A stretch of 51,905 nt of DNA from a virus (IMGVR_UViG_3300021142_000042:1-51905); one strand, 5' to 3'; numbered from the stretch's first letter, positions 1 to 46,357 are shown. Translations and numbers: made by a program. Notes: generated by a model from the letters alone, not told the origin.

Positions 1-86
1 GCGCCGTGAGCCCCATGCAGCCGTCGAGGTAGATGGAGCCGCCGACGCTCAGGCCATCGGGCAGCGCCGTGAGCCCCGTGCAGCCG
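1..86. repeat. Terminal direct repeat / circular assembly overlap (1-86 = 51820-51905)
   Basis: The first 86 nt match the last 86 nt, including the unique 'ccccatgcag' repeat variant. Joining them restores one open reading frame. Confidence 0.95.
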
Positions 87-295
87 TCGAGGTAGATGGA
101 GCCGCCGACGCTCAGGCCATCGGGCAGCGCCGTGAGCCCCGTGCAGCCGTTGAGGCAGAGGTAGCCGCCGACGCTCAGGCCATCGGGCAGCGCCGTGAGC
201 CCCGTGCAGCCGGCGAGGTAGAGGGGGCCGCCGACGCTCAGGCCATCGGGCAGCGCCGTGAGCTCCGTGCAGCCGTTGAGGCAGAGGTAGCCATC
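1..295. repeat. 63-bp coding tandem repeat (about 6 units counting the copy at the window end)
   Basis: The unit gccgccgacgctcaggccatcgggcagcgccgtgagccccgtgcagccg... recurs every 63 nt. Confidence 0.95.
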
Positions 296-376
296 AACTT
301 TGCACCCAGTCATCGTCGCGAACTTTGCGAACGAGACTCGCTTGCCGTTGATCATCACAGTCTTTTTCGTAGCCAT
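1..376 (-). CDS. Leucine-rich-repeat protein, 5' part (159 aa when joined across the junction to 51716-51819)
   Basis: ATG at 376 after GAGGGTG. Reads MATKKTVMINGKRVSF..., then 21-aa repeats LTALPDGLSVGGxxxLxGCTG. Missing from the ORF track because it crosses the contig end. 376+104 nt = 480 nt, in frame. Confidence 0.88.
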   Translation of the reverse strand, partial: MATKKTVMINGKRVSFAKFATMTGCKVDGYLCLNGCTELTALPDGLSVGGPLYLAGCTGLTALPDGLSVGGYLCLNGCTGLTALPDGLSVGGSIYLDGCTGLTALPDGLSVGGSIYLDGCMGLTA

Positions 377-462
377 CACACCCTCTCGCGCTTCTCGCGC
401 TCTGTCGTTGGTCGCGCGTCCACCTTTCAAGGCGGCAGGGCTTGAACCCGCGCGGGTTGGCG

Positions 463-1908
463 CTAAATCAGCGCGGCTTGCACCGGCTTGGCGCGCACGC
501 GGCCATCGTCGATGATCACCGCGCCTTCGTCGCCGTCGCCCACGCGCTCAATCCAGAGTTGCGTTCCGGACGCCTCTGCCATCTCCGCCACCATCGCCAT
601 GCTGCGGCGGTCCAAGAGCGAGGCGTCACGCACCAGGACAACCCGCAGTTGCGGATTCATCGCCTGCGCAATCGCCATGCTGACACGGATCTGCTCGGCT
701 TGGCTCGCCTGCGACAGCGGGATCGCGTAGAACGTCACTTCACCTTCGTCGCCGAATCCGAGTCCGGCGATCGGATACACAGCGGCAGCAATCCGCTTGA
801 CGCGCTCCGAATCGATGGTCGCGATTTCGTCGCTCATGGCCTTGTACTTGCTAGCGAGCGTGAGCAACTTGTCGTGCGCCGCCTTGCGCTGGGCATTGGC
901 GCGGACCTTGGCGTTCGTGGCGTCCACGTTCGCCGCCTTGGCGCGGATCGCTTCCACGTCCGGCAACTTCACGGCATCTGCGGCGCGCAGGTTCTCGGCG
1001 GCAGTGGCGCGGCTGGCTTTGGCTTTGGCATCGTTGTTGTCGATGCGCAGTTTCAGGTCCGCTTTTTTCGCCTCGCACTCGCCTTGAATCCGCGTCGCCT
1101 CTGCCAGTTTGCGCACCTTCAACTCGTCGATCTGGCGGTCAAACTCGGCATTGCTGCGCTCGATTTGCTTTGCCGTTTCGATGGCGTAGAGATCGGCGCG
1201 CCGTTCGCCAGCGCGCACATCGCAGGCGTCCGCTTCCGCTTCTAGCCGCTGCGCGTCTGCCCGCAGGTTGTCCACCGTGCGCGCCAACTCCGTCGCCTCG
1301 GTCAACTCCGTCAGCACTTCGCCCGCAGACAACTCCGCTTCTGGCACGTCCAGATGCTCTTGCGGCAACACCTTGCACGCACCGTCCTGTGCATCGCGGT
1401 CGCGGCCCGTCTGCAGCCGTTGCGCGTACAGCAGGGCGCGGCGCGAATCCAGGTCCGACACGTCGACCCCGACCAACCGCCGCAGCGTCTCCGCCTGCTC
1501 CTTCTCCGCCTGCTCCTTCTCCGCCAGCCGCGTGAACGCCAGCGGGTCAAACGACAGTTTGCCGATCCGCTCGTTCAACCACTCTTGCGGGCGCGGAACG
1601 ATCATGCCTTCGCGCGTCGTGACCTTGAGCGTGAAAACGTCGTCTCCACCTTCCTTGGCTGACTTTTTGACCTCGCTGGCGATCTTGAAATCGCCACAGT
1701 CAATGAACACTTCGCTCTTGTCGGCACCTTCGCGGATCGGCTTGGACGGCATAGCGCCTTTGCCACCAAACGCGCCGGCAATCGCATCCAGCACGCTCGA
1801 CTTGCCCTGCGCGTTGTCGCCGCCGAGGATCACGACGCTACCGTCCGGCTTGATTTCCGCACGCTCGATGCGCTTGAAGTTGTGGACGCTGAGAGAGAGA
1901 ACTTTCAT
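463..1908 (-). CDS. SMC/Rad50(SbcC)-like ABC-type ATPase with coiled coil
   Basis: N-terminal LSVHNFKRI, Walker A GDNAQGKSS, long coiled coil, signature-like LSQASQAEQ, Walker B/D-loop VVLVRDASLLD. Confidence 0.88.
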   Translation of the reverse strand: MKVLSLSVHNFKRIERAEIKPDGSVVILGGDNAQGKSSVLDAIAGAFGGKGAMPSKPIREGADKSEVFIDCGDFKIASEVKKSAKEGGDDVFTLKVTTREGMIVPRPQEWLNERIGKLSFDPLAFTRLAEKEQAEKEQAETLRRLVGVDVSDLDSRRALLYAQRLQTGRDRDAQDGACKVLPQEHLDVPEAELSAGEVLTELTEATELARTVDNLRADAQRLEAEADACDVRAGERRADLYAIETAKQIERSNAEFDRQIDELKVRKLAEATRIQGECEAKKADLKLRIDNNDAKAKASRATAAENLRAADAVKLPDVEAIRAKAANVDATNAKVRANAQRKAAHDKLLTLASKYKAMSDEIATIDSERVKRIAAAVYPIAGLGFGDEGEVTFYAIPLSQASQAEQIRVSMAIAQAMNPQLRVVLVRDASLLDRRSMAMVAEMAEASGTQLWIERVGDGDEGAVIIDDGRVRAKPVQAALI

Positions 1909-2913: not shown

Positions 2914-2915
2914 GG

Positions 2916-4108: not shown

Positions 4109-4149
4109 CATGATGTTAGTAGCGTTGGAATCTGCTGTCAAGCATGATG
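4109..4149 (-). promoter_or_regulatory. Sigma70-type early promoter with two CATCATG boxes
   Basis: Minus strand TTGACA (4141-4136), N17, TAACAT (4118-4113). CATCATG boxes at 4109-4115 and 4143-4149. Near-copy at 9321-9360. Confidence 0.75.
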
Positions 4150-7467: not shown

Positions 7468-8036
7468 TTCGTCACCTCCGTTTTCTCAAACCGCTTCGCA
7501 AACTCCGCGCGCTGCTCGGTTGACCAGTCAGGGCACTTCTCCGCCAGAATCTCGACCATCAGGTCATACGGGCGCGGGCACGGAATCGACGGGTCCCACA
7601 ACTCGCGCGACTCAGTGAACACGCAAGCGCGTTCCAGTTTCACGCCTTGATACGGACACGGGCCAGGCGGTGACGCTGCCCAGCGGTCAAACGCGGTCGG
7701 ATCGGGGTGGCACGCTGCATCGTAGGCCATCGCTTTCGCCGTCAGCGCTGGCGACAGTGATCCCCATCTTGCGAGTAGCAGCATCGTCGGCGCGCACAGG
7801 TACGCCCCCGACAGGTCCGCCCCCGACAGGTCCGCCCCCGACAGGTACGCCCGTGACAGGTTCGCCCCCGACAGGTACGCCCGTGACAGGTTCGCCCCCG
7901 ACAGGTACGCCCCCGACAGGTACGCCCGTGACAGGTCCGCCCCCGACAGGTCCGCCCGCTTGCCTTCCGGCGAAAGTCGCAACCACAGACCATGCGATCG
8001 CACGATCTCGTTCAGTTCTTCTTGAGTCATCTTCAT
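7464..8036 (-). CDS. Pentapeptide-repeat protein
   Basis: Phage-typical N-terminus [17 protein letters not shown]...GKRA, then about 11 A(D/Y/N)LS(G/R) repeats from 15-bp tandem repeats at about 7795-7957. Confidence 0.92.
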
Positions 8037-9305: not shown

Positions 9306-9671
9306 TCAGTGCGTCGCTGTCATGATGATAGCGCCGCCCGCAGTGGTGTCAAGCATGATGATAGCGGCGAGTCTGCGGAATGGGGTCCCTGACCTTTGCG
9401 TGTCACGTTTAGGTTTTTGCAGCGACGTGATCAGCGTTTCGCCAGATCCGCCGCATTCCGCCACCTCGGCGCGCAATGCTGCGCAATCTTTGCACAAGTC
9501 GCCGTCATCGCGCAGGAACGCCACAGCGCTCTCGCCGCGCACCCACGTTCGGATGTTCGGCGTGCACAAAGGCGCGTAACTGCTGATGCTGGACGCGTCC
9601 CAATCGTGGATAAGCCCGCTCGGCTGACCTTCGCGGTGCAGGCGGCTTTTGCGGAGTTGGATGCGGTTCAT
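9306..9671 (-). CDS. Possible hypothetical protein
   Basis: ATGA overlap with the helicase stop and a CKDC motif. The 3' end runs over the promoter, so uncertain. Confidence 0.35.
   Translation of the reverse strand: MNRIQLRKSRLHREGQPSGLIHDWDASSISSYAPLCTPNIRTWVRGESAVAFLRDDGDLCKDCAALRAEVAECGGSGETLITSLQKPKRDTQRSGTPFRRLAAIIMLDTTAGGAIIMTATH
9321..9360 (-). promoter_or_regulatory. Sigma70-type early promoter with two CATCATG boxes
   Basis: Minus strand TTGACA (9352-9347), N16, TATCAT (9330-9325). Boxes at 9321-9327 and 9354-9360. Confidence 0.75.
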
Positions 9672-12157: not shown

Positions 12158-12158
12158 G

Positions 12159-13436
12159 TTATTTCCCCACAAAGCGAACGTGCGCGCCTTCCCAGCGCAG
12201 GGCGCCATCGCGCGTCCTTCCGCTCGGTCCCGACTTGTTCTTGAGCAAGACAGCGATCGCCTCGCCCTTGTCCTGAGACATGCCCATTTTTTCAGGGATA
12301 ATCGGGCAAGTGATGGTGTAAGCGTCCTTTTCGAGTTGGCTGCAATCAGCAAGATCGGCCATCGTTGGCATCCGCTTGGACTTTTCCACGTCGCGGTTGA
12401 GTTGCGCCAGCACTAAAACCGGCGCGTTGATCGTGCGCGCAAGGTCGGCGAGTTCCGTGCTGATCTTGACCAACTCATCGAGCCGGCTGTGACTGCGCGA
12501 GTCGCTGCGGATGCGCTGGTAGTAGTCCACCACAACAAGCGCCACCTTGCCGCGGCTGGCGGACCTGCGCGACTCGGCGACGATTGACTGCACGGTCACG
12601 TTGACATCGCGCATTCGAATTGGCAGCGCGGACAGTCCGCTGAACGCGTCGCGGTAGCCCGCTAGCGATTCGTCGTTGTGCTGCTTTTTCGTGATCGTCC
12701 GCAGTGGCACATCGGACACCTGCGCGGCCAGCCGGCGCACTTGGTCGGTGTTCGGCATCTCGACGCAGAAAAACAGCACTTCACCAACGCCTTGCGCCGC
12801 CACGCCGACAGCGATCTGTGTCGCCAGCGAAGTCTTGCCTTGTCCTGGGCGCGCTGCCACGACGTGCATCGCTGCGGTGTATCCGCCGTCCAGCAACTCA
12901 TCGAGCCACGGCACGGCTGTCGGCGTCTTGGATGCGGTTTCAGATTCGCCGTTGTCTTCAGCCCACGCGCGCTGGATCACGTCTGCGATCGACTCCATCG
13001 CCGTCACCTTCGGCTCTGGGCCATCCGCTCCAAAACCGGAGACGGCCGCCAGAAACTCCTCTGCCGTTTGCTCCCGCGCCGCAGATCCAAGTTGCGCCAA
13101 ACGCTGCCACTGCCGGCGCGCCTCTGCGGCCAGCGCCACCTGTTGCGCGTGATGCTTGGCGCTCATGGTCGATCCGCAGGCGTCGGTGATGTCGACCAAA
13201 AACTCCACATCTGCGCGGCCATTGACCGCTTGGGAGACGGTGACAATATCGATCGGGGCCTTGGCCGCCTGCAACGCCTGCAACGCGCTCCAGACGGCGA
13301 CGTGACGCGGATCGTAGAAGTCGGCGGCGCTAACCACGTCCGCGGCGTCAAGCAGCGCGTCGGGGTCAACAATGCACGATCCGAGCAGCGCGCGCTCGCT
13401 TTCGTCGTTACGGACCATGGCGGGGATTTTGCTCAT
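12159..13436 (-). CDS. dnaB: DnaB-like replicative helicase
   Basis: ERALLGS..DFYDPRH N-terminal domain, AARPGQGKT, VEM, VVVDYYQ, LAQLNR, LEKDA, KNKSGP. Confidence 0.92.
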   Translation of the reverse strand: MSKIPAMVRNDESERALLGSCIVDPDALLDAADVVSAADFYDPRHVAVWSALQALQAAKAPIDIVTVSQAVNGRADVEFLVDITDACGSTMSAKHHAQQVALAAEARRQWQRLAQLGSAAREQTAEEFLAAVSGFGADGPEPKVTAMESIADVIQRAWAEDNGESETASKTPTAVPWLDELLDGGYTAAMHVVAARPGQGKTSLATQIAVGVAAQGVGEVLFFCVEMPNTDQVRRLAAQVSDVPLRTITKKQHNDESLAGYRDAFSGLSALPIRMRDVNVTVQSIVAESRRSASRGKVALVVVDYYQRIRSDSRSHSRLDELVKISTELADLARTINAPVLVLAQLNRDVEKSKRMPTMADLADCSQLEKDAYTITCPIIPEKMGMSQDKGEAIAVLLKNKSGPSGRTRDGALRWEGAHVRFVGK

Positions 13437-14386
13437 AGTTCCTCGTAGGTTTTGTCGTTTCGCCATGTTTCGGACGTGGATGGCTGCTGCGCCTTTGCCC
13501 TGTTTTCACGCTCCTTGATGACCGCCTCCAGGTTCTCGCGAGCAAGCCACGCACGGATTGGCTTCACGCGCTTTCGTCCGCTGTGCCAGTCGTCTGCGTG
13601 CGCCCATGCCAGCAACTCGCGCAGTCCATCTTCCTGCAACTGCTCCAGCGCAGCGGCCAAAACGCGGTGATTCGTCGCGTCCGCCTTGGCTTCTGGCTGG
13701 TCGCGCATCATCTCGTTCCATATCGCCGCGACGCGCATCGCTTTGGCAAACATCGCGTTGATTGGCCTCGCCGGCTTCTCCGGTTTGGGTGTCGTCAGGC
13801 CCAATTGGTAGGGGCGCAATTCTGCTGGGGTAGCTGGGTCGCTACCCTGAACCGCTGTGTAGTCTGAACAGCCGTTCAGGGTCGGATTTGGAGTTGCGGT
13901 CAAGGCCCAGTTGTCGTCAGGATCTGGAGCAGGTGACGCGGTGTTGTTCTTGGTCTCTGATGAATGACTATCTGATTGGCTGAACCGCTGTTCAGGGTAC
14001 GAGACTGAACCGCTGTTCAGGGTGGGACTGAACCGCTGTTCAGGGTGGGACTGAACCGCTGTGTAGTCTGAACAGCCGTTCAGGGTAGCATCGGAATCCC
14101 ATTGATACCAAAGGCAATCGTAAGACGTTGCCGCATCAGCGCCGTGTTTGGTTTTGCGCCGTGTTTCGCGCAAAAAACCAGCAGTTACAGCTCGGTCAAG
14201 AACCTTTCGGACGCCGCGATCTGTCATGCTGAGCGCGGATGCAAGTGTCGCTACCGCAGGCCGCGCGTCGCATCCGGTCTGAAAGTCTGCCCAGTGCGCC
14301 AGACGCAGGCACACCCGGAGCATTGTCGCATCCGTGCAGCGGTCGATCAGACTAGATGTTGCGCGGCTGTAGCGTTCAGCGACCAC
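13433..14386 (-). CDS. Replication initiator (N-terminal HTH, lambda O-like organisation)
   Basis: PAVATLASALSMTDRGVRKVL..GFL HTH, internal iterons, coupled to dnaB. Probable GTG start at 14386 after AAAGGA; the ORF extends to 14434. Confidence 0.75.
   Translation of the reverse strand: MVAERYSRATSSLIDRCTDATMLRVCLRLAHWADFQTGCDARPAVATLASALSMTDRGVRKVLDRAVTAGFLRETRRKTKHGADAATSYDCLWYQWDSDATLNGCSDYTAVQSHPEQRFSPTLNSGSVSYPEQRFSQSDSHSSETKNNTASPAPDPDDNWALTATPNPTLNGCSDYTAVQGSDPATPAELRPYQLGLTTPKPEKPARPINAMFAKAMRVAAIWNEMMRDQPEAKADATNHRVLAAALEQLQEDGLRELLAWAHADDWHSGRKRVKPIRAWLARENLEAVIKERENRAKAQQPSTSETWRNDKTYEEL
13841..14089. repeat. Iteron array, putative replication origin within the initiator gene
   Basis: CTGAACCGCTGTTCAGGGT at 13980, 14005 and 14028. 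Identical 36-mers at 13847-13882 and 14051-14086. Inverted 12-mers at 13841-13852 and 14078-14089. Confidence 0.85.
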
Positions 14387-18695: not shown

Positions 18696-20315
18696 ATGGC
18701 AGACGGATCGCGCCCCGGCCCCGAAGACATCGTGTACGAGTGGGACGGCAGTTTCGAGATGTTCGCGTCCGAAGCGGTCCTTCTCAACGTCGCAGAGGAG
18801 CGGCGCGATGCATTGGGCATTGAAGAGCGCGAGGTTCCGTTTGCGCTGAATCCAGGGCAACGCCTGCTGCTGGACATTACGCGCACGGACGCCAACCAAC
18901 GCAAGATGCGTCGGCTTCGCGTGCTCGTGCTCAAGGCGCGGCAGGTAGGCAGCACGACGTTTTGGGTGCTGTGGTTCCTGTGGATCTGCATCTTCCAGCC
19001 CGGATCGCGCATTGTCATCGTGGCGCAACACCGCGACTCGGCCGCCGCCATCCTGCTCAACATTGCCACGTTTGCCTGTCACAACCTGCCGTCGTGGTTT
19101 AGCAGCCGACTCCAGTACAAGGCGGTGACGGAGACGATCACGTTCGGCAACGGCTCGACCATGTTCTGCGCGACGGCGAATAGCGAGTTTCTGCGGTCGG
19201 GATCGCTGGACGGCGTGTTGTTCACGGAGGTGACAAGTTACGACGATTTTCAGACGACGCTAACGGCCGTCACGCGCGCTTGCGCCGGTCCTGTGATCGT
19301 AGAATCGACCGCAAAGGGCCTCGGTCTGTTCAAGGACATGTGGGAGAGCAACCGCAGTTCTTGGCGCAAGCTGTTCATCTCGTGGCTGATCGATCCGTTC
19401 TGCCACCTCGAACACACGAACATCGAGCCGACGGCCGAAAACCTGCTCTACATCAAGGAGCACAACCTCTCGCGCACGCAGGCGAACTGGTACCTTGAAA
19501 CGCTGTGGACGGAGTTTGCAGGCAACCAGAAGCAGTTCGACCAAGAATGTCCAGCGACACCCGCGCTGGCGTTCATCACCGCAGGGACCAAGTTTTTTGT
19601 CGGCCGCACGTTCCAGTTCGACCACTCCCTGCTGCCGTGGAAGGGCGCAGAGCGCGTGGACTACGCCAAGCCCATCGCAGGGCACAAGTACGCGCTGGGC
19701 GTGGACGTGGCGCAAGGTGGCGTGGACAACGACGACTCGACAGGGATCCTGCTGGACGTGACCGACTTGAAGCGAATCACGGTGGCCAGCGTCATCCAGT
19801 GCTGGAAGGCGATCCCGCTGTTCGGGGACGACCTCGTGAAACTCGCCAAGGACTATGGCAACGTGCTTGCGGTGGTCGAAAACAACATCGGCCTGGAGTT
19901 GACGCGGCTTCTGCGCAAGAACGGGATCAAGCAGTACAAGAAGCAGCACGACGACACGATGACCGTGCAGGTGGACGAGTACGGCTTCACGACGACCGTA
20001 TCCACGCGACCCACGCTGATGGCGCACCTGACGCGCTATGTGATGGGCAACATCATCGACGACCTGCGCGACCCGAGATTGATGGACCAGTGCAATACGT
20101 TCGTCTACAACAAACAGGGCAAGCCGGAAGCCGCGCAAAGCAAGCGGGACGGGCTCGTGCTGGGGCTGGGTCTGGCGCTGGAAGCAATCGCGCAGTACAG
20201 CCTGTTTGAGACGCCGCCGCCGCGAGAGGTCATTCCGCCGCGTCCTACGGGCGGCGATGCTAATGCCCAACTCATGTGGGATATCAAGTACTTGACAAAG
20301 GCCGTGCGCCGGTAG
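18696..20315 (+). CDS. terL: Terminase large subunit
   Basis: LNPGQ, Walker A VLKARQVGSTT, Walker B VLFTE, coupling motif VESTAKG, nuclease YALGVDVA..DDS, VENN. Confidence 0.92.
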   Translation: MADGSRPGPEDIVYEWDGSFEMFASEAVLLNVAEERRDALGIEEREVPFALNPGQRLLLDITRTDANQRKMRRLRVLVLKARQVGSTTFWVLWFLWICIFQPGSRIVIVAQHRDSAAAILLNIATFACHNLPSWFSSRLQYKAVTETITFGNGSTMFCATANSEFLRSGSLDGVLFTEVTSYDDFQTTLTAVTRACAGPVIVESTAKGLGLFKDMWESNRSSWRKLFISWLIDPFCHLEHTNIEPTAENLLYIKEHNLSRTQANWYLETLWTEFAGNQKQFDQECPATPALAFITAGTKFFVGRTFQFDHSLLPWKGAERVDYAKPIAGHKYALGVDVAQGGVDNDDSTGILLDVTDLKRITVASVIQCWKAIPLFGDDLVKLAKDYGNVLAVVENNIGLELTRLLRKNGIKQYKKQHDDTMTVQVDEYGFTTTVSTRPTLMAHLTRYVMGNIIDDLRDPRLMDQCNTFVYNKQGKPEAAQSKRDGLVLGLGLALEAIAQYSLFETPPPREVIPPRPTGGDANAQLMWDIKYLTKAVRR

Positions 20316-21295: not shown

Positions 21296-22561
21296 ATGAA
21301 CATCGCGCAACTTTCCGCACTGCTCAAGGTCCACTACGTCGATGGCGTGGTCGAGCAAATCAACTACGAGTCGATTCTGGTGAACCACTTCGAGCCTGCT
21401 GAGTTGCAGTGGTCGGGTAAGAACGTCACGTTCGCCCTGCACGCCAAGAGCAACGGCTCGGTGGCGGCGGCTGCTGAAGGTGTGACGCTCGCGCAGCCCG
21501 GCTCGCAGGTGTACACGGATCTGATCTTTACGTCGGCGTACGTGTACGGGCAGTTTGTGCTGTCCGGTCCCGCGCTGGCGGCGGCGAAGAAGGGCGGTCC
21601 TGCCGCGTACCTGTCTGCGATGGACGCCGAGATGATCCCGCTGCGCAAGGACGTGCGTTTGTACGCCGACACCTGCTGCTTCACGGGCGGTCCGTTCATC
21701 GGCTACGTGTGGCAGAAGAACAACGCGTTGACGACCCTCCAGTCCAGCGTGCGCTTCAACTACGCCAACCTGCCTGGCTACAACCCGACCGGCTACGGCG
21801 TGAAGATCTACCGGCTTGACACGTTCGCGGAAGTGGACCCGAACGCCGCGCGCACCATCACGGCGATCAGCACGGAAGGCGACTACATCACGGTCAACAT
21901 CGCGATCGACACGTCGGCGGTTCCTGCCGAAGTGCTGCTGGGCGTCGTGAGCGCTGCGCCGAATCTGGCTGTCGAGTCCAACGGCATGGCCTACAACATG
22001 TTCTCCCCGCAGTGGTACAACGTCACGCGCGGCACGGCGAACACGGAGAAGCTGAACGGCAACTACCTGTTGGCGAACAGCATCACGGCAGCGCGCGACG
22101 ACCTGACGCCGGGCAACTTGCAGGCGCTGGTCAGCCGCATCATGTTCGCGAGCGGCGAGACGCCCGACGCGCTGTACCTCAGCCCGTTGCAGTTGAACTC
22201 GTATGTGGCGCTCTTGCAGGGCGTGGCGAGCGGCGTGCCGAATGCGGCGCGGTTGGACGTGAAGACGCCTGCTGGCAAGGGCGATGTGGGCTTCACGTCG
22301 TACGCCTACAACGGCACGATCCCGTTCTTCCAAGGCCAGAACTGCCCGCTCGGCGTGATCTACATGCTGCGCCGCGAGTATTGGAAGATCGCGACCTTGC
22401 AGGATCCCGAGTTCGACGAGACGACGGGCAACATCCTGCGCGCGCCGTCGAGCCAGTTCGACAGCTACAGCGGCCTGTTCAAGTGGTACTTCCAGTTCGC
22501 GTGCAAGCGTCCGAACTCCAGCGGCGTGATCGCGGGTATCTCGACTCCGCTGGGCGCGTAA
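21296..22561 (+). CDS. Major capsid protein (HK97 fold)
   Basis: Strong AAGGAG RBS, biased codons, LSALLKVHY..VVEQIN, E-loop-like AEGVTLAQPG, C-terminal YFQFACKRPNSSGVI. Confidence 0.85.
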   Translation: MNIAQLSALLKVHYVDGVVEQINYESILVNHFEPAELQWSGKNVTFALHAKSNGSVAAAAEGVTLAQPGSQVYTDLIFTSAYVYGQFVLSGPALAAAKKGGPAAYLSAMDAEMIPLRKDVRLYADTCCFTGGPFIGYVWQKNNALTTLQSSVRFNYANLPGYNPTGYGVKIYRLDTFAEVDPNAARTITAISTEGDYITVNIAIDTSAVPAEVLLGVVSAAPNLAVESNGMAYNMFSPQWYNVTRGTANTEKLNGNYLLANSITAARDDLTPGNLQALVSRIMFASGETPDALYLSPLQLNSYVALLQGVASGVPNAARLDVKTPAGKGDVGFTSYAYNGTIPFFQGQNCPLGVIYMLRREYWKIATLQDPEFDETTGNILRAPSSQFDSYSGLFKWYFQFACKRPNSSGVIAGISTPLGA

Positions 22562-23945: not shown

Positions 23946-25901
23946 ATGCGGACTCACGACGAACAGGACGCGCGAGACGATCAGGACGACGAAACCGAAG
24001 TCATGACCGGCGCGATCGATGATGACGCGGACCAACTATCGGCGGCAGAAGTCGCGCAGATGGCGCAGCGCTGCCTTGAAGTGAACGCGCCACGTCGTCA
24101 GATGACGATGATCTGCATTGAGTTCTTGCGCGGCAATCAGGATCCGGCGCTGGCAACTGGCGAGTCTCCGCAGACGGCGACGGGACAGAACATCGCGGCG
24201 CGCGTGCTGGGCCCGACCGAAGTCATCATCAACAAGATCCTGCCGAAGCGTAATCAGGTCGTGTCGCGGCTGGCGACGGCCTACCCGTCGATGACGGTGA
24301 TGCCCGCTTCTGACAGCGCGGAAGACGAGGAAAAGACCAAAGCAAGCCAACTGCTGCTGCGGTACTTCTGGAACCAAGCCAACATGAAGCGCAAGCTGAA
24401 GCGCGGATCGCAATGGCTGGTCGACGCGGGCATGTACGCGCTGCATGAGTTCTTCAACCCGGCGACGGGAAACGTCGACATTGAAGTCATCAGCCCGTTG
24501 GACTTCCTGCACGAGGCTTATGTCCACGACGTGGAGGACTCACGCATCCTGGGTGTTCGCCGGTTCACGACTCGGCACGCGCTGCTGAAGACGTTTCCCG
24601 ACAAGTCTGAGGAGATCCTCAAGTACGGCAACAGCACGCGCGACGTGACCTCGCTGCGGCAGACGGGCGTGGACTCGCAGCCTGCGGATCGCGTGGAACT
24701 GTTCGAAGTCTACACGCAGGACGGGCAGCACCTGCTGTTGCTGGGCTCTCACGTGCTCAAGCGCCTGAAGATGGACACAACCAAGATCCCGATCCAGCTC
24801 ATCCGCTACAACGAAATCAGCGGCATTCTCGCGGGCATTGGCATGGTCGAGACCTGCCTTGCGCCGCAGATGATGCGCAATCGGTTTTTGACGCAGATCA
24901 CCGAAAACGCGCGGAAGATGGCGAACCCGAAGATCATGATCCCGATTGAATCGGGCGTGACGGAGGACGCGTTTGCCAGCGACACAGGCGAAAAGATCCC
25001 GTTTACGGGCGGTCACCGGCCGATTCCGTGGCAGCCGCAGGCGATGACGCCGGATCTGCTGTCGATGCCGACGCGGTTCGACGCGGACATGGACGACGCC
25101 AGCGGTCAGGCGGCAATCGCGCAGGGCAAGATGGTCGGCGCGCGTTCTGGCGTGGCAATCGACGCACTGACGGAAAACGCGCTGTCGCCGTTGCAGTTGG
25201 TGCAGGAAAACATCGAGGAAGGGGTCAAGGACGCCGCGGAACGCGTGCTGGAACTGATGAAGGTCCACTACAGCGAAGGCAAGATGGTGCGCATGTTCGA
25301 CCCCGACACGGGCGTTTTCGTGTCGCAGGAGTTGAACGCCACGCACATCGTGGACAACCCGCAAATCTTCTTGGAAGCGGGCAGCCTGTTCCGTTCGGAA
25401 GCGGCGGATCGCGACAAGCAGACGATGGACCTGTTCAAGGCGGGCCTCATCGACAAGGATACGGCCATGCGCAACCTGTCGCTGCACAATGTCAGCGGCG
25501 ACGTGGTGGGCAAGATGAAGGCGCTGAAGCACGCGCGCAACCTGCTGAACGCTGTTGTGCAGTTCCGGCGCCCGTTGCAGGACTTGACCGCTGGCGACGA
25601 CCTCGACTCGCTCAAGGAAGTCTTCGGCAACTTCTTGCACAGCGACGAGTTCTACGCCGCGCCGCCTGAAACGCAGGACATCGTAAATCAGGCGTACATG
25701 CAGATCGTCGCGGCCATGCAGGCGCGTGCTCAGACAATGGCGAATCCTGGCGCTCCGATGCCGCCTGCGGGCGCTCCGCAAGGTGGCCCGAGCGCTTCGC
25801 TGGGTGTGAACCCGGTGGCTACGGCGCAAGCGAACGCGCCGCAGACCGCACAGTTTCAGCCGCCGCCGCTTGGGCAGCCGTCCGCAAACGCGCAGCAGTG
25901 A
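23946..25901 (+). CDS. Portal protein (P22-like/podoviral type)
   Basis: FLRGNQ, INKILPK, DAGMYAL, ISPLDF, GIGMVE, NPKIMIP, RSGVAI, Gln/Pro-rich tail. Confidence 0.85.
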   Translation: MRTHDEQDARDDQDDETEVMTGAIDDDADQLSAAEVAQMAQRCLEVNAPRRQMTMICIEFLRGNQDPALATGESPQTATGQNIAARVLGPTEVIINKILPKRNQVVSRLATAYPSMTVMPASDSAEDEEKTKASQLLLRYFWNQANMKRKLKRGSQWLVDAGMYALHEFFNPATGNVDIEVISPLDFLHEAYVHDVEDSRILGVRRFTTRHALLKTFPDKSEEILKYGNSTRDVTSLRQTGVDSQPADRVELFEVYTQDGQHLLLLGSHVLKRLKMDTTKIPIQLIRYNEISGILAGIGMVETCLAPQMMRNRFLTQITENARKMANPKIMIPIESGVTEDAFASDTGEKIPFTGGHRPIPWQPQAMTPDLLSMPTRFDADMDDASGQAAIAQGKMVGARSGVAIDALTENALSPLQLVQENIEEGVKDAAERVLELMKVHYSEGKMVRMFDPDTGVFVSQELNATHIVDNPQIFLEAGSLFRSEAADRDKQTMDLFKAGLIDKDTAMRNLSLHNVSGDVVGKMKALKHARNLLNAVVQFRRPLQDLTAGDDLDSLKEVFGNFLHSDEFYAAPPETQDIVNQAYMQIVAAMQARAQTMANPGAPMPPAGAPQGGPSASLGVNPVATAQANAPQTAQFQPPPLGQPSANAQQ

Positions 25902-25909
25902 GGTGATCC

Positions 25910-26692
25910 GTGGACGGACAATCGATCTACAACTTGGCGCGGTCGATTGCCGACGACGGAGACGTGACGTTTCAGACCCAAGCGGATTGGGCGTCTGCGC
26001 TTCAGCAGGGCTACGCGTCCTATCAGCAGCTCATCGCCGCGCAACTCCCCAGCATCTACGAGAAGCGTTACGACTTCACGGTCAACGCGACGGCCGAATA
26101 CGACTTGGACGGCATTCTTTTCGGCGCTACGCCTTCCGAGGGCAATCGGCTGTACAAGATCACGAAAATGCACAACGTCAACGTGGGCAGTACGCCGGAC
26201 TTTGGCGGTTGGGTGCAGCCCGCGACTTCGATGGAGGAACTATGGGCGTACGCTGTCGGTGGCGCGGGTGCCGGTGCGCCGGGTGCGTGGGGTAGTTGGC
26301 GGTGGTTTTTGCAGGACACCAAACTCCTGTTCAGTTGCCAACTGACGCAGCAGCTTCGGCTGTACTACATCCCCAGCCCGACGATCGATTGGGCGACGGC
26401 GATCGCGACTCCCAACATCTTCATCGACAACACGCCGGACTTCGCACAGCAGGCGATTGCCTACTACGCGTTTCAGGCGTACGCGATCAAGGACTTCCAG
26501 CAGAATCCGGTTGCGCAACAGCGTTTTGACGGGATTCTGTTGCAGATCAAGCAGTGGCTTGCGGTAGGTCGCAACGGCGATGCTTCGCGCTGGGTGCAAC
26601 CGGGGCGTCAACGTAGCCCGTGGGGTTCCTTTGCGTTTCTTTTCGGCCTGTTGGCGTGCGCTTTGCCGGTGGCGGAAAGGCTGATGACCTGA
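25910..26692 (+). CDS. Head-tail adaptor (P22 gp4 / T7 gp11-like)
   Basis: Follows the portal. IYNLARSIAD..ALQQGY, EYDL, LRLYYIPSP, AIAYYA pattern. Confidence 0.65.
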   Translation: MDGQSIYNLARSIADDGDVTFQTQADWASALQQGYASYQQLIAAQLPSIYEKRYDFTVNATAEYDLDGILFGATPSEGNRLYKITKMHNVNVGSTPDFGGWVQPATSMEELWAYAVGGAGAGAPGAWGSWRWFLQDTKLLFSCQLTQQLRLYYIPSPTIDWATAIATPNIFIDNTPDFAQQAIAYYAFQAYAIKDFQQNPVAQQRFDGILLQIKQWLAVGRNGDASRWVQPGRQRSPWGSFAFLFGLLACALPVAERLMT

Positions 26693-28149
26693 TGGCAAAC
26701 CCCGCGTACAACCAGCAAGCGGTACTCGACGCGGACATTACGCGCGGCATCGATGCGGATTCATTAGAGAAACAGGGCGTCTCTTTTGTACTCAACATGT
26801 CGTACCGCGTCAACCGCTTGGAGGTGCGCGGCGGCTTCGGCACGCTGGCACAATTTGGCACAACGCTCAACGCGGGGCGCGATGCGACGTTGCCCGCGTA
26901 CGGCTACGGTCCGCCCCTTGCAGCCACGCTACAGGTCACGAACTTCGGGCACGTCCAGATTCTCAGCGTGCATCAATTGCAGGGCTTCACGGGCACGCTA
27001 GGCGGCCAGTATTTGACCAACCTGTTCGCGCTGTCGGTGTACGACGTGACGACGGGTCGGCGGTCTGAGCACGTCTTTCGCCAGCAAACGCAGTGGACAA
27101 GCAACCTGCCCGCCGCTGCGTTGCCGAGCGCGGGTCAACCGCAATGGCTGGAACGCAACCCGCTGTCGGTGCCGTGCTTTACGCAGTTGAGCGATCTTCA
27201 GTACGTGTGCATCCCGCAGCAGGGCGTGTGGTTCTACCGCCCGATCGACGTGTACGCGGTGGACCAGCGATTGCAGACGGTCCCGGGCGCGTTGCAGAAC
27301 GGCGATAGCGCGTGGGTGGAGACGCTTGTGCCCGTGGACGGCGTGTTCGCCGGCGCTGGCGTTGTGTACTTCAACGCGGCGACCTTCCCACCTCCGCAGT
27401 GCCTTTGCGCGTTCCAAAACCGCATGGTCTACGCGAGTGGGCGCAAACTGTTCTTCAGCGACGCGGATCGCCCCGACAACATCGCGGCTAACAGCTTCTT
27501 TGCGATCCCGACAGAAATGCCGATTACGGCTATCGCGTCGGTGAAGGGCGTGATCCTCGCGTTCACGGAAAACGAGACCTGGCTGTACCAACCCAGCAAC
27601 CCGACGCAGACGGGCTTGATCTCCGGTGGCGTGGTGTACAACTTGAGCCGGTCGCGCGGGTGTCTGTCTCCGCAGTCGTTTACGCTGATGGGTGACACGG
27701 TTGTGTTCATGGACCGTCGCGGGATCTACACGACGGACGGCGGCACGGCTATCACGAAGATCAGCGAGAGCATCGACACATGGTTTACGCTGCCTGAGCA
27801 GATTCAGAACCCGTTGACGAACTACCTGACGCAATTGGGTGGATCTCCTGCGACGGGGGCGCAGCCTCGCGCGTTCATCGACTTTCAGGATCAGTTGTGG
27901 CGGTCGACGTTCACATGGGATCCGCTGAATCAGTTTTTGTACGTGACCTTTGACGACCTGACGCTGTGCTACAGCCCCGATTTCGGGTGGTCGGTGTGGC
28001 TGTACGAGACGACGGCGGTTCCGCTTGTCGGCGGCGTTCCCAAGGTGGGCTTGCAGCAGCGGATTGTGAACCCGATCATCTTGTGCAACAACGGCGACAC
28101 GTACATGATCGGCGGGTCGGATCAGCAGGCGTATTCGCCCGCACCGTAG
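26692..28149 (+). CDS. Tail nozzle/stabilisation protein (P22 gp10 / T7 gp12-like), N-terminal beta-propeller part
   Basis: LNM..NRLEVRGG, FQNRMVYA..LFFSD, ITAI..ILAFTENETW, RGCLSPQS..VVFMDRRGIY..ITKISESI. No obvious C-terminal domain. Confidence 0.75.
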   Translation: MANPAYNQQAVLDADITRGIDADSLEKQGVSFVLNMSYRVNRLEVRGGFGTLAQFGTTLNAGRDATLPAYGYGPPLAATLQVTNFGHVQILSVHQLQGFTGTLGGQYLTNLFALSVYDVTTGRRSEHVFRQQTQWTSNLPAAALPSAGQPQWLERNPLSVPCFTQLSDLQYVCIPQQGVWFYRPIDVYAVDQRLQTVPGALQNGDSAWVETLVPVDGVFAGAGVVYFNAATFPPPQCLCAFQNRMVYASGRKLFFSDADRPDNIAANSFFAIPTEMPITAIASVKGVILAFTENETWLYQPSNPTQTGLISGGVVYNLSRSRGCLSPQSFTLMGDTVVFMDRRGIYTTDGGTAITKISESIDTWFTLPEQIQNPLTNYLTQLGGSPATGAQPRAFIDFQDQLWRSTFTWDPLNQFLYVTFDDLTLCYSPDFGWSVWLYETTAVPLVGGVPKVGLQQRIVNPIILCNNGDTYMIGGSDQQAYSPAP

Positions 28150-28189
28150 GGTGTCGGCATGTAGCGCCCACGGCGCGGGAAGGTGAAGG

Positions 28190-28858
28190 ATGGGCGGGAT
28201 TTTCAGAAGTTCGGAAGATGCGGTCGTTCGAGTTCCGTATCCTGCGCTCGGAACTGATGCAAGCACGTACGAGACGACGTTTGCAAATTTGCGCTGTTAT
28301 GTGCGCGCAAACGACGGAACAAGCATTGCTTTCGGATTTCTCAACGCCCTGACCGGATGCACTGCTACGGACGAGTCGGCAATATGCGTACGGTTCGTCA
28401 TTCCCGCTGCCGCTATTGCTGGTGCCGGTTTGCAAGGCTCCTGTGCAATTGAGCTTTTTGTGGATGCCTCAGTGACGCAAACCGTCGTCGTCGTGCCGTT
28501 CCAATGGGGCGGCACCATCGATCTGCTGGCAGGCGGCGCTACAGCAGCAGAAGCCGTCGACACGCTGACCAAGGCTGGCGGACCCGGCGACCTCGCGGCA
28601 GTCAAGGCCGTGACAGACCTGTTGCCGAATGCTGGCGCGTTGACGGGAATTGCTGCTGACGCTCTCACGGGGGCGACGCAGGCCAACCTTGCCCGCAAAG
28701 CCCTGCTGAACGAGTGGGTGCCCAACAGCGCGACCACGCCGACCACGCTGACGCTCAACGACGACGGCGGAAGCCCGATGCTGACGCGCACGATCGCCAA
28801 CGCAAGCGCAACGGCGGTTAGCCCTGACCAAGTGCTGCACCTCGGCAAAGCCGTGTAG
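28190..28858 (+). CDS. Inserted gene: putative virion/fibre-like protein
   Basis: GAAGG RBS. The 5' half is visibly more AT-rich than its flanks. C-terminus LARKALLN..TLTLNDDGGSPMLT. Confidence 0.6.
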   Translation: MGGIFRSSEDAVVRVPYPALGTDASTYETTFANLRCYVRANDGTSIAFGFLNALTGCTATDESAICVRFVIPAAAIAGAGLQGSCAIELFVDASVTQTVVVVPFQWGGTIDLLAGGATAAEAVDTLTKAGGPGDLAAVKAVTDLLPNAGALTGIAADALTGATQANLARKALLNEWVPNSATTPTTLTLNDDGGSPMLTRTIANASATAVSPDQVLHLGKAV

Positions 28859-28866
28859 GGGGTGCC

Positions 28867-30150
28867 GTGATCTTCTCGCCGTTCCCGCTGTTTGCGACCC
28901 CGCCCGCCCCGCTTCCCGTTCGTTCGGTTGTGGACTCGTCCGTCTACATCCTGCAACTAGGGCGCGGTGGTGCGTTGGATCGCAGCAGCGTGACGCAAGA
29001 GGATCTGCGCCAGCCGTACGAGTCCTGGCAGTCCGTCGCGCAAGCCAGCGCAGGTTCCGCCGCGCTGTACATTGCGCCGCCGATTCTTCTGCCCGCAGGT
29101 TTCCGCACGACGCAGCCCGATCCCCTCGCCGCGCCGACGTGGCTTGTCCCGCTTTGCCTCGCTGGCAACACGCTGAACGCGTCCCTTCTCGTGTCCAGCG
29201 TTGAACTGCAACTGCGCTTCGACAATGCCCTGTGGCAGCCGGTTTTGATTTCAGGCTACACCCTGAACTACATGACGCCTCCCGCGCGCTGCAAGTCACG
29301 CACGGCGTTCAAGGACGTATCCGTGTACACGGGCGCGACCCACGATCCCGCTGGCAATACGATCCACGTCAACTGGAACACGAACGGCAGCGTCCCGCCG
29401 TCTGGCTGGTCCGCGTATCCATACATGGTCATCAACGCCGGAGTCCCGCAGCCGATTGCCTACCTGCTGATGCAGCGTCGCACGGGCACGGAAGCGGGAA
29501 CGTCGCTGTCCATGAAGTGGGCAATCACCCGCGCCAAGGTCAACGGCGAGGACATTAACGCGTACATCGCGCAGGAATCGGGGCAACCATCCTACCCGCA
29601 GCAGGATCTCGGCGACAACACGCAGGCTCAGCCGGTGGATTGGGCGCTGTCCACCCCGCTGATTGGCGACGGCAAGGCTCAATTGAAGTCGCGCGGCGTG
29701 TTCGCTGTGTTGCAGTCCTACGGCAAGGCAACGGCGGCACAAGTCGCAGGCTGGCCGGTTGGACCCTACGCCACGGTCACGACAAGCGATTTCAAGGACT
29801 TCTCCGCGCAGCAGATCGACTGGAGCAACGGCGATCCGCACGAGATCCAGAACATCGGAGCGCCTCGTTTTCGTATCGAGCCCAACGGCACGACGATTCC
29901 GACAAGCAAGACCGGCAACAACGTCGCGACGTGGGGCAGTTCCGCTACGCCGTCCGCTGGCAACATGCTGATCGACGATGCGGCGGTGGACACGATCGCG
30001 ACCTCTGAAGGCGTGCGCGGTGAACGCTTCCGCTCCATGCTGTTTGGGTGTATGAACAGCAACGGCGAGCAGTTGAAGGTGAGCAAGGTGCGCATCATCG
30101 TTCGTCAGGTTGGCGGATTGCGCCGTTCCGGTCGGCGGGGGCTGACATGA
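28867..30150 (+). CDS. Tail nozzle protein, C-terminal part
   Basis: Ends WALSTPLIGDG..LKSRGV...RGERFR...LKVSKVRIIVRQVGGLRR, like nozzle C-termini. Same reading frame as 26692-28149. Confidence 0.6.
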   Translation: MIFSPFPLFATPPAPLPVRSVVDSSVYILQLGRGGALDRSSVTQEDLRQPYESWQSVAQASAGSAALYIAPPILLPAGFRTTQPDPLAAPTWLVPLCLAGNTLNASLLVSSVELQLRFDNALWQPVLISGYTLNYMTPPARCKSRTAFKDVSVYTGATHDPAGNTIHVNWNTNGSVPPSGWSAYPYMVINAGVPQPIAYLLMQRRTGTEAGTSLSMKWAITRAKVNGEDINAYIAQESGQPSYPQQDLGDNTQAQPVDWALSTPLIGDGKAQLKSRGVFAVLQSYGKATAAQVAGWPVGPYATVTTSDFKDFSAQQIDWSNGDPHEIQNIGAPRFRIEPNGTTIPTSKTGNNVATWGSSATPSAGNMLIDDAAVDTIATSEGVRGERFRSMLFGCMNSNGEQLKVSKVRIIVRQVGGLRRSGRRGLT

Positions 30151-46273: not shown

Positions 46274-46357
46274 GGGCGCGTTGGGGGAGAGGTCCATCCC
46301 AATTCAGTCGCAAGGCTGGAGAAACAACCCGAAGGTTCGAATCCTTCACGCGCCCCC
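46274..46357 (+). ncRNA. tRNA-like RNA without a canonical anticodon loop
   Basis: Acceptor GGGCGCGT/ACGCGCCC, D-arm GGGG-AGAGGTCCA-TCCC, T-arm GAAGG-TTCGAAT-CCTTC. The anticodon arm is TTCAGTC-GCAA-GGCTGGA. The 3' end reads CCG, not CCA. Confidence 0.75.

What the first reader, a model, noticed from the sequence alone, without database searches (positions are those of the whole stretch)
26692..30150. Tail nozzle gene split in frame by a 765-bp insert bounded by Pro-Ala-Pro microhomology
Seen: ORF 26692-28149 has nozzle-like propeller motifs and stops at ...QQAYSPAP*. ORF 28867-30150 carries a nozzle-like C-terminus, lies in the same frame, and begins with a short leader MIFSPFPLFATP followed by PAP-LPVRSVVDSSVYILQLG. 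CGCCCGCACCG (28136-28146) and CGCCCGCCCCG (28901-28911) are 765 nt apart, and joining them gives a continuous protein of about 900 aa. The CCG-TAG junction sits in a hairpin GCC-C-GCACC-GTAG-GGTGT-C-GGC. Established precedents: T4 gene 60 bypassing (matched codons, stop, stem-loop, but only a 50-nt gap) and phage Aeh1 nrdA split by mobE into two polypeptides. Inference: either a split structural gene rescued by an insert-supplied restart (GGGGG..GTG), or removal of the insert at DNA, RNA or ribosome level. The passenger is not a recognisable nuclease.
Basis: partly seen in the sequence, partly recalled or inferred. Interest (0 to 1): 0.75.

Follow-up and report, generated by a model that had tools for sequence, protein, structure and literature searches.

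The report
Phage tail nozzle gene split in two
In this freshwater phage the gene for the tail nozzle, a single gene of about 900 codons in its relatives, is cut in two by an extra small gene, and the two pieces most likely work as separate proteins that fit back together.

Summary
ORFs 26692-28149 and 28867-30150 share a frame and are separated by a 717-nt insert carrying a 222-codon ORF (28190-28858) in another frame. Of the 150 best homologues, 136 are single proteins of 805-1100 aa. In 101 of 105 related loci both halves lie in one open frame, and none has the insert. A confident model of the closest fused homologue has the podovirus nozzle/tail-hub fold (T7 gp12, P22 gp10). The break maps to the turn of a long beta-hairpin, with canonical hub parts on both sides, so the second ORF is not an independent fold.

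The split recurs in related phages (N-half 86%, C-half 66-70% identical), with both halves intact. Their insert genes keep a conserved C-terminal module but have unrelated N-domains.

The Pro-Ala-Pro microhomology is near chance (128 of 2000 random window pairs) and is not conserved: relatives' N-halves end PL* or VETI*. No Rfam family matched (so no intron model), the halves matched no Pfam family (so no intein domain), and reading TAG through still meets four TGA stops.

Best reading: a "genes-in-pieces" nozzle expressed as three cistrons. The C-half restarts at GTG 28867, 8 nt after the insert's stop. Bypassing or splicing is very unlikely. The passenger's function is unknown; a swappable virion accessory is possible.

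The parts
26692..28149 (+). N-piece of the tail nozzle/hub gene (485 aa): N-terminal platform part and most of the beta-propeller. It ends ...AYSPAP, stop TAG 28147-28149.
   Evidence: ORF. 136 of the 150 best homologues are 805-1100 aa, with this piece aligned to about their first 500 residues. Fold of fused homologue P0013. The start ATG 26692 agrees with relatives' MANPA....
28136..28146 (+). Left copy of the 10/11-nt Pro-Ala-Pro microhomology.
   Evidence: Near chance (128 of 2000) and not conserved in relatives.
28150..28189 (+). 40-nt spacer with a Shine-Dalgarno-like GGAAGGTGAAGG directly before the insert ORF's ATG.
28190..28858 (+). Passenger gene (222 aa) in the +1 frame, of no known family. 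It has a variable beta-sandwich N-domain (about 28190-28510, GC3 0.54), a window-specific 45-aa insertion (about 28529-28663) that holds the direct repeat D1 (28559-28580 and 28616-28637, 73%), and a conserved C-terminal module (about 28664-28855, GC3 0.86 over 28691-28858).
   Evidence: No Pfam or PHROG family.
28859..28866 (+). 8-nt gap GGGGTGCC between the passenger's stop TAG and the C-piece start. With the G of the TAG it reads GGGGG, Shine-Dalgarno-like. Proposed site of coupled re-initiation.
   Evidence: The function is inferred.
28867..30150 (+). C-piece of the nozzle/hub gene (427 aa), GTG start. The leader MIFSPFPLFATPPAPLPVRSV (28867-28929) has no counterpart in fused homologues. 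Homology starts at about VDSSVYILQLGRGG (28930 onward). It supplies the second strand of the hairpin, the inserted domain(s), and the last propeller and C-terminal platform parts.
28901..28911 (+). Right copy of the microhomology, inside the C-piece leader.

Best explanation
This is a 'genes-in-pieces' tail nozzle (tail hub).

Origin. In an ancestor of this phage clade, a cassette of about 0.7-0.8 kb carrying one small gene landed in the length-variable turn of a long beta-hairpin of the nozzle gene. The former single gene of about 900 codons became three tightly packed cistrons of the late structural operon.

Expression.
1. The N-piece is translated to the TAG at 28147.
2. The passenger gene is translated from its own Shine-Dalgarno site and ATG at 28190.
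3. The C-piece is started afresh at GTG 28867, 8 nt after the passenger's stop, behind a GGGGG Shine-Dalgarno-like run. This is probably coupled re-initiation.

Assembly. The two nozzle polypeptides (about 53 and 46 kDa by length) then associate non-covalently. The last strand of the N-piece pairs with the first homologous strand of the C-piece. The C-piece also brings the remaining propeller and platform elements, which rebuilds the hexameric nozzle under the portal and adaptor.

Passenger. It is not a nuclease. It has a conserved C-terminal module and an N-terminal beta-sandwich domain that differs completely between close relatives. I therefore infer that it is an exchangeable accessory protein, possibly virion-bound near the opened hairpin.

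Shown: the anatomy, the ancestral single-gene state, the fold, the position of the break, and the conservation of the split.

Inferred: separate translation, non-covalent reassembly, and the passenger's role.
For: 1. Ancestral state is one gene.
- Of 248 hits to the N-piece, 136 of the best 150 are 805-1100 aa, with the N-piece aligned to about their residues 1-500.
- Four of the short representatives checked sit in 90% clusters with full-length members.
- In 101 of 105 related loci both halves lie in one open frame, and 0 of 105 has a passenger homologue.
- The closest fused forms read straight across the break: P0013 ...TYPNGGSPSIVDSS..., L027 ...EEYGLFSDSS....

2. The break is structurally benign but not a domain boundary.
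- The AlphaFold2 model of P0013 has pLDDT 86.5 and pTM 0.89. Strands 471-485 and 488-501 form a hairpin, and the break maps to its turn.
- The segment between the flanking motifs varies from 15 to 46 aa in 100 fused homologues.
- Hub-only proteins (P22 gp10, Sf6, Pa223 gp59, Pan3, Pam1, VP1) align to model ranges 8-13..882-891 with 418-442 residues, Z 17-21. Canonical hub parts therefore lie in both pieces.

3. The split is kept under selection.
- Relatives have N-pieces of 482-484 aa (86% identical) and C-pieces of 429 aa (66-70% identical), all intact. All 5 C-pieces read begin MIFSPFPLF.
- Passenger homologues P0007, P0008 and P0009 keep the C-terminal ~60 aa but differ in the N-domain.

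4. Start signals and gene packing resemble those of neighbouring genes. No promoter- or terminator-like site lies in the insert.

5. Synteny major capsid protein (MCP)-portal-orf260-nozzle-orf294-orf853 is conserved. The portal is P22/SU10-like.
Against: - No protein or RNA data exist for this uncultured phage, so separate translation and reassembly are not shown.
- The relatives' DNA could not be fetched. That the three genes are adjacent in relatives rests only on matching contig lengths, and no dN/dS could be computed.
- The structural argument uses a model of a 65%/53%-identical fused homologue and only first-to-last alignment ranges, not residue contacts.
- The window does carry a matched CCG before the stop and in the leader, plus a local hairpin, as a bypass model would want.
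Confidence: 0.8

Rival explanations
1. The insert is removed to give a single ~900-aa polypeptide. The route would be RNA splicing (intron), ribosomal bypassing from CCG-TAG to the downstream CCG as in T4 gene 60, protein splicing, or stop-codon reassignment.
For: - The two pieces are in the same frame.
- There is a 10/11-nt match with CCG at both sites.
- The stop follows directly, inside a hairpin with z = -2.06 in 46 nt.
- Joining at PAP would give a 26-aa linker, typical of the family, where 25 and 26 aa are the commonest lengths and the median is 28.
Against: - No Rfam family fits at E<=10 apart from one chance-level snoRNA hit.
- The gap is 717 nt and holds a conserved, separately started ORF, against 50 non-coding nt in T4 gene 60 (recalled).
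- Relatives' N-pieces end AYPL* and TYVETI*, without Pro-Ala-Pro.
- The microhomology is near chance.
- Reading TAG as sense still meets 4 TGA stops in frame.
- The pieces matched no Pfam family, so no Hint/intein domain, and their ends show no intein block (and the sequence).
- The C-piece has its own start and a leader kept in all relatives read.
Confidence: 0.03
2. The nozzle gene is simply broken: a defective phage, a pseudogene or a mis-assembly.
For: There is a premature stop relative to 136 full-length homologues.
Against: - The record is a complete genome with direct terminal repeats.
- The same arrangement stands in contigs of several other runs dated 2012-2020.
- The split is shared by relatives at 86% and 66-70% identity, with both pieces uninterrupted in every full-length member read.
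- Both halves keep high GC3 (0.81 and 0.79) like coding sequence.
Confidence: 0.03
3. The split is as in the best explanation, but the passenger has nothing to do with the tail. It would be a selfish or 'moron' cassette, for example an anti-defence or exclusion protein, that is merely tolerated at a permissive loop.
For: - It belongs to no structural family.
- Its N-domain has foreign-looking composition, GC3 0.54 against about 0.8 in the flanks.
- It is absent from all 105 fused loci.
- Its N-domain is exchanged between close relatives, as is also typical of counter-defence genes (established knowledge).
Against: - It sits inside the late structural operon with no promoter or terminator of its own, and its stop lies 8 nt from the C-piece start.
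- Its C-terminal module is about as conserved as the N-piece (8 differences in the last 55 aligned residues against P0007, counted by eye).
- The window's copy gained a 45-aa insertion that holds the direct repeat D1 (22 nt, 73% alike). A stretch of the same insertion also matched P0010 and P0011 (E 2e-3 and 8e-3).
Confidence: 0.3

Closest known systems
Podovirus nozzle / tail hub proteins (T7 gp12 'tail tubular protein B', P22 gp10, Pa223 gp59, SU10 gp17, cyanophage A4 and P-SCSP1u nozzles)
   Same: - Same fold for the fused homologue: Foldseek E 2e-18 to 5e-9, VIA Z 17-21 with 394-494 aligned residues.
- The gene lies downstream of a P22/SU10-like portal.
- The platform, beta-propeller and inserted-domain layout is as described for SU10 and Pa223 (PMC9509320, passages of section 12; bioRxiv 10.1101/2025.06.11.659172, section 8).
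   Different: - There is no detectable sequence-family membership. No Pfam hit was found, only ~100-aa PHROG matches, and tblastn found nothing among 50,697 phage records.
- In every solved example listed the nozzle is one chain. Here it is encoded in two.
Genes-in-pieces: Aeromonas phage Aeh1 nrdA split by the homing endonuclease gene mobE (Friedrich et al. 2007; title seen in the reference list of PMC3322345, content recalled); T4 topoisomerase genes 39/60 (recalled)
   Same: An essential single gene is cut into two ORFs by an inserted ORF. The pieces are thought to be made separately and to reassemble into an active protein.
   Different: - The passenger here is not a homing endonuclease or any recognisable nuclease.
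- The target is a virion structural protein, cut inside a beta-propeller hairpin.
- The passenger's N-domain is swapped among close relatives.
T4 gene 60 translational bypassing (recalled)
   Same: A stop follows directly after a codon that recurs downstream, and there is a local hairpin at the stop.
   Different: - The gap is 717 nt and coding, not 50 nt.
- The matched codons are not conserved in relatives.
- The C-piece has its own start and a conserved leader.
Fibre-dock loops of nozzle propellers (SU10 short-tail-fibre dock loop as an extension of blade 1; Pa223 Fiber Attachment Loop, residues 354-387)
   Same: Each is an extended hairpin or loop that projects from a propeller blade. Pa223's Fiber Attachment Loop (residues 354-387) lies just before the chain's C-terminal platform part (403-512). 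SU10's dock loop carries Trp839, Trp847 and Trp857 (PMC9509320, section 12 passages; Pa223 preprint, section 8). In those phages it is where an accessory fibre binds.
   Different: Equivalence of the hairpin broken here with those loops is inferred from chain topology only. No fibre-like family was found for the passenger.

Membership tests
Podovirus nozzle / tail hub (T7 gp12 / P22 gp10 fold) | Beta-propeller with a platform domain made from the N- and C-terminal parts of the chain | tested here: met
   The model of fused homologue P0013 (pLDDT 86.5) matches nozzle and hub chains first: Foldseek E down to 2e-18, VIA Z 17-21, with hub-only chains spanning model 8-13..882-891. The test used the homologue (65% and 53% identical to the window's halves), not the window's own chains.
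Podovirus nozzle / tail hub (T7 gp12 / P22 gp10 fold) | Gene position after the portal and adaptor in the structural operon | tested here: inconclusive
   The portal is identified (PF16510 P22_portal E 8e-20) and synteny is conserved in relatives. The 260-aa ORF between portal and nozzle matched no adaptor family.
Podovirus nozzle / tail hub (T7 gp12 / P22 gp10 fold) | Sequence membership in a curated family (Pfam/PHROG tail tubular protein B, gp10) | tested here: inconclusive
   No Pfam family was found. There are only partial hits of about 70-160 aa (most about 100) to phrog_511, 3287, 8094, 21185 and 578, and a weak PDB sequence hit to Pa223 gp59, E 0.025.
Podovirus nozzle / tail hub (T7 gp12 / P22 gp10 fold) | Hexamer under the adaptor in the virion | not testable with these tools
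   Needs cryo-EM or biochemistry.
Genes-in-pieces by homing endonuclease insertion (Aeh1 nrdA/mobE type) | A gene that is single in relatives is cut into two ORFs by an inserted ORF | tested here: met
Genes-in-pieces by homing endonuclease insertion (Aeh1 nrdA/mobE type) | The inserted ORF is a homing endonuclease (HNH, GIY-YIG, LAGLIDADG) | tested here: not met
   No nuclease family was found in Pfam or PHROGs at E<=1 for the passenger or its three homologues. The same search method did find a LAGLIDADG intein elsewhere in this genome.
Genes-in-pieces by homing endonuclease insertion (Aeh1 nrdA/mobE type) | The pieces are made separately and reassemble into a working protein | not testable with these tools
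   Inferred from the conservation of both pieces and from the fold.
Translational bypassing (T4 gene 60 type) | Matched take-off and landing codons, conserved | tested here: not met
   Present in the window but not conserved: relatives' N-pieces end PL* and VETI*. The match is near chance (128 of 2000).
Translational bypassing (T4 gene 60 type) | Short non-coding gap | tested here: not met
   The gap is 717 nt and holds a conserved ORF with its own start.
Self-splicing intron (group I or II) | Intron RNA structure | tested here: not met
   The Rfam scan of 27900-29200 at E<=10 gave only one chance-level snoRNA hit. An intron type not in Rfam is not excluded.
Intein / split intein | Hint domain blocks at the ends of the pieces, with an in-frame insert | tested here: not met
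   The pieces matched no Pfam family at E<=0.01. The insert is in another frame behind a stop. The 21-aa leader is too short for an Int-C and lacks its terminal His-Asn (sequence; motif recalled).

The most novel reading that the evidence does not exclude
The split is adaptive rather than merely tolerated. Opening the tip of a projecting propeller hairpin created two free chain ends: the variable N-piece tail, and the proline-rich leader MIFSPFPLF... of the C-piece. These ends would serve as a dock for the protein encoded between them. That protein would be a small, cassette-like accessory, anchored by its conserved C-terminal module, with an exchangeable Ig-like N-domain that acts in host recognition. 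This would be a host-range module encoded inside the nozzle gene itself, and swapped by recombination between the conserved flanks.
Probability: 0.2. Interest if true: 0.7.

Novelty: new variant of a known kind. Interest (0 to 1): 0.45.

Why it matters
Split genes in phages are known mainly for enzymes cut by homing endonucleases or introns. Here a core virion machine part, a beta-propeller nozzle, is cut at a hairpin turn by a non-nuclease gene, and the cut has been kept while the phages diverged. This shows that even the DNA-ejection channel tolerates being built from two chains.

It offers a natural example of propeller fragment complementation. It also marks a permissive site that could be used to engineer podovirus tails.

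If the passenger proves to be a nozzle-bound, exchangeable domain, it would be a new way for short-tailed phages to carry host-range variation.

It is also a practical warning for annotation. Gene callers report three 'hypothetical proteins' here, and the nozzle is easy to miss.

Tried and rejected
- **Phage records.** tblastn of both halves, the passenger and a marine relative's nozzle against 50,697 phage records gave no match.
- **First scans for relatives.** Scans of viral contigs with the C-half alone and with the passenger alignment, and of metagenome contigs with the passenger alignment, found no relatives.
- **Split relatives' DNA.** It was therefore not obtained. The tool that fetches contigs by exact protein is closed.
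- **Genome contigs.** No host was inferred.
- **RNA.** No RNA holder was listed among 24 public runs, so expression could not be looked at.
- **Insert-less form.** The runs laid were contigs only. No insert-less joint appeared, which is weak because contigs drop rare variants.
- **Complex prediction.** N-piece + C-piece + passenger residues 150-222 gave no verdict (score 0.00). This is neither for nor against binding.
- **Passenger structure.** AlphaFold2 on 4 sequences gave pLDDT 45.4, too poor for a fold search. Only an N-terminal beta-sandwish-like region, strands up to about residue 105, is suggested.
- **ESM Atlas.** It gave only unnamed viral clusters and Ig-like leads with TM < 0.5, and nothing for the C-half.
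- **Split intein, frameshift fusion of the N-piece to the passenger, and TAG reassignment.** All were rejected from the sequence: TGA at 28184-28186 in frame 2, and 4 TGA stops in frame 1.
- **Target-site duplication.** The resemblance of YSPAP to FSPFP, and of L027's GLFS to MIFS, is too short to test.
- **Literature.** Searches for a split nozzle or tail tubular protein B listed no such case. These were listings and abstracts only, and subscription journals are not covered.

Full report
**What is there**

The window is a complete virus record of 51,905 bp with direct terminal repeats. Near-identical sequence occurs in many freshwater metagenome runs.

Its right arm is a + strand structural operon:
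- large terminase, 18696-20315
- major head protein, 21296-22561
- a P22/SU10-like portal, 23946-25901
- a 260-aa ORF
- the region in question
- a series of large ORFs and an endolysin

- ORF 26692-28149 (485 aa, ends QQAYSPAP, stop TAG)
- a 40-nt spacer
- ORF 28190-28858 (222 aa) in the +1 frame
- 8 nt
- ORF 28867-30150 (427 aa, GTG start, MIFSPFPLFATPPAPLPVRSVVDSSVYILQLGRGG...), in the same frame as the first ORF

**The gene is normally single**

A search of 1.84 billion representatives with the N-piece gave 248 hits at E <= 1e-3.
- Of the best 150, 136 are 805-1100 aa, with the N-piece aligned to about their first 500 residues.
- The other 14 are the window's own protein and 13 shorter proteins.
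- Three of the 13 (P0003, P0004, P0149) align from their first residue, which suggests a cut gene. P0003 lies on a contig of only 2,073 bp.
- Four checked (P0064, P0069, P0096, P0148) sit in 90% clusters with members of 837-977 aa.
- One (P0114, 463 aa, on a 13.7-kb contig) was not resolved.

The C-piece finds the same proteins. P0003, P0004, P0013 and others continue N-terminally into N-piece homology.

I examined 105 related loci from metagenome and viral contigs by tblastn and open-frame tracing:
- In 101, both halves lie in one open frame.
- In one (L064), they lie in two overlapping frames.
- In three, only one half was found in that run. In L009 and L076 the C-half match begins within about 350 nt of the locus start. 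L023 had both halves in one frame.
- None holds a homologue of the passenger.

Synteny major capsid protein (MCP)-portal-orf260-nozzle-orf294-orf853 is conserved in these distant relatives.

The closest fused forms read across the break without interruption:
- P0013: ...YMVGGPDVETYPNGGSPSIVDSSIYILQLGRGG
- L027: ...YMIGGADIEEYGLFSDSSVYILKAGRGG
- P0003: ...RELYGTFYDDSVYIL

**It is a nozzle, and where the cut lies**

Sequence libraries barely recognise the family.
- No Pfam family was found.
- PHROG matches cover only about 100 aa of a propeller region.
- The only PDB sequence hit is weak: 9nwi_Y, E 0.025. A chain of that length (residues 2-513) is described as the tail hub gp59 of Pseudomonas phage Pa223 in bioRxiv 10.1101/2025.06.11.659172, which lists 9NWI among its entries (section 8 and a passage read).

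An AlphaFold2 model of fused homologue P0013, built on 100 sequences, is confident (mean pLDDT 86.5, pTM 0.89).
- Foldseek against the PDB ranks podovirus nozzle or hub chains first (E 2e-18 to 5e-9): cyanophage A4, PhiM1, Pa223, Carin-1, HRP29, P-SCSP1u, Kp9, LME-1, T7 gp12, P22 gp10, Sf6, SU10.
- BFVD gives 'tail tubular protein B' and 'P22 gp10' proteins.

In the model, strands 471-485 and 488-501 form one long hairpin. The window's N-piece ends (Y-SPAP) at the position of the turn, P0013 Y483-PNGG-S488. The C-piece's homology resumes at VDSS (P0013 V492-D493).

The segment between the flanking motifs YMxGG and GRGG varies from 15 to 46 aa (median 28) in 100 fused homologues. The insert therefore sits in a length-tolerant turn.

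The cut is not a domain boundary. In the VIA re-alignment:
- Hub-only proteins of 442-521 aa (P22 gp10, Sf6, Pa223 gp59, Pan3, Pam1, VP1) align with 418-442 residues over model ranges that begin at 8-13 and end at 882-891.
- WD40-type propellers span about 34-506, and some reach 725-730.

This fits the described architecture of SU10 and Pa223 nozzles: the platform is made from the N- and C-terminal parts of the chain, the propeller has a velcro closure, and extra domains are inserted into the propeller (PMC9509320, section 12 passages; Pa223 preprint, section 8).

Parts of the canonical hub therefore lie in both ORFs. The C-piece is not 'an unrelated complete fold', and a working nozzle needs both pieces.

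One caveat applies. Only the first and last aligned residues were available to me, not contacts.

**The split is inherited and kept**

Related uncultured phages have the following:
- N-pieces of 482-484 aa, 86% identical (P0174, P0175, P0178, P0179)
- C-pieces of 429 aa, 66-70% identical (P0002, P0162-P0165)

These lie on contigs of up to 50 kb. All full-length members are uninterrupted, and all five C-pieces start MIFSPFPLF.

Passenger homologues P0007, P0008 and P0009 (170-184 aa) appear on contigs of the same lengths as particular N- and C-piece variants: 33,475, 50,167 and 49,256 bp. This suggests that the three genes travel together. Adjacency itself was not seen, because the DNA could not be fetched.

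The fused proteins P0003 and L027 (72% identity to the N-piece for P0003; 54-56% to the C-piece) are the nearest outgroup. The insertion therefore postdates that split and predates the 86% divergence.

**The passenger**

No family was found. Alignment A1 shows:
- a short conserved N-terminus, MGG(I/M)FRS.E, in three of four sequences
- an unalignable N-domain
- the motif QWGGT(I/V)DLL
- a nearly invariant C-terminal ~60 aa, ARKALLN.WVPNS...LTLNDDGG.P..TRTI.NASATAVSPDQVL.LGKAV

The window's copy has an extra 45 aa. It holds the direct repeat D1 (22 nt, 73% alike), and a stretch of it also matched P0010 and P0011.

The variable N-domain has GC3 0.54, against 0.81 and 0.79 in the nozzle pieces and 0.86 in the passenger's own C-terminal module.

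The N-piece tail after the conserved Tyr changes with them: SPAP*, PL*, VETI*.

The unit that varies therefore runs from just after that Tyr to the QWGG motif. The pattern is that of a cassette exchanged by recombination between conserved flanks.

The model of the passenger was poor (pLDDT 45.4), and the Atlas gave only Ig-like leads. Its function is not established.

**How it most likely works**

Three cistrons. The passenger has GGAAGGTGAAGG before its ATG. The C-piece's GTG lies 8 nt after the passenger's TAG, behind GGGGG. Neighbouring genes are packed in the same way, for example the overlap at 30147-30150. No promoter- or terminator-like site lies in the insert.

The two nozzle chains would pair through the hairpin strands and through the propeller and platform elements that the C-piece carries.

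I put 0.8 on this. All the expression steps are inferred.

**Why the exotic readings fail**

- The 10/11-nt match is near chance: 128 of 2000 random window pairs, and 20 comparable repeat families in 1.3 kb.
- It is missing in relatives.
- The hairpin is only locally notable.
- No Rfam family fits.
- TAG read-through meets four TGA stops.
- A +1 shift meets TGA at 28184.
- The pieces matched no Pfam family, so no intein domain. This genome does carry a LAGLIDADG intein in a helicase gene, which the same method found.
- DNA contigs from other runs show the insert and no joint.

**Comparison and novelty**

The closest concept is the genes-in-pieces nrdA of phage Aeh1, cut by mobE. The content of that paper is recalled; its title was seen in a reference list.

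This case differs in three ways. The target is a structural beta-propeller, the passenger is not a nuclease, and the passenger varies like a cassette.

My three literature searches listed no split nozzle (listings and abstracts only).

I rate it a new variant of a known kind, of moderate interest (0.45).

The boldest reading still open, at about 0.2, is that the opened hairpin and the proline-rich leader form a dock for the passenger. Blade extensions dock fibres in this way in SU10 and Pa223. The locus would then be a host-range cassette built into the nozzle.

Noticed in passing
window 9671-12352 (- strand): An 894-aa SNF2/DEAD-type helicase ORF carries an intein. Pfam finds Hom_end_hint (E 9e-14) at residues 114-178 and Hom_end/LAGLIDADG_3 at 318-389, ahead of the ResIII and Helicase_C domains. 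This genome does host a classical mobile element, unlike the nozzle insert.
   Followed up: no
window 46275-46357 (+ strand): A tRNA gene just after the endolysin. Rfam tRNA scores 34.7 bits (gathering score 29). ARAGORN reports an odd four-base anticodon 'gcaa', and the Rfam alignment shows 18 nt where the model has 11 in the anticodon arm. It could be an intron, an enlarged anticodon loop or a degenerate tRNA.
   Followed up: partly
L064:3-3004: This is the only one of 105 related loci where the nozzle halves lie in two different, overlapping open frames (3-1961 and 1613-3004) without any insert. It could be a frameshift, a sequencing error or another way of splitting the gene.
   Followed up: no
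protein P0114 (463 aa, contig of 13,727 bp): A lone short N-piece-like representative with no full-length member in its 90% cluster. It may be a second, independent truncation or split of the nozzle gene.
   Followed up: no
window 466-8036 (- strand): The left arm is transcribed from the other strand. It encodes an AAA/SMC-like ATPase, a RecT-like protein, a PDDEXK (DUF3799) nuclease, a DNA methylase, an RNase T-type exonuclease and a pentapeptide-repeat protein (7467-8036, E 2e-25). A DnaB helicase lies at 12162-13466.
   Followed up: no
window 28529-28663; proteins P0010, P0011: A stretch of the passenger's window-specific 45-aa insertion also matched two otherwise unrelated metagenomic proteins, P0010 and P0011 (E 2e-3 and 8e-3; 15-16% of the query at 60-67% identity). 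By eye the shared stretch recurs within them. No family matched it.
   Followed up: partly
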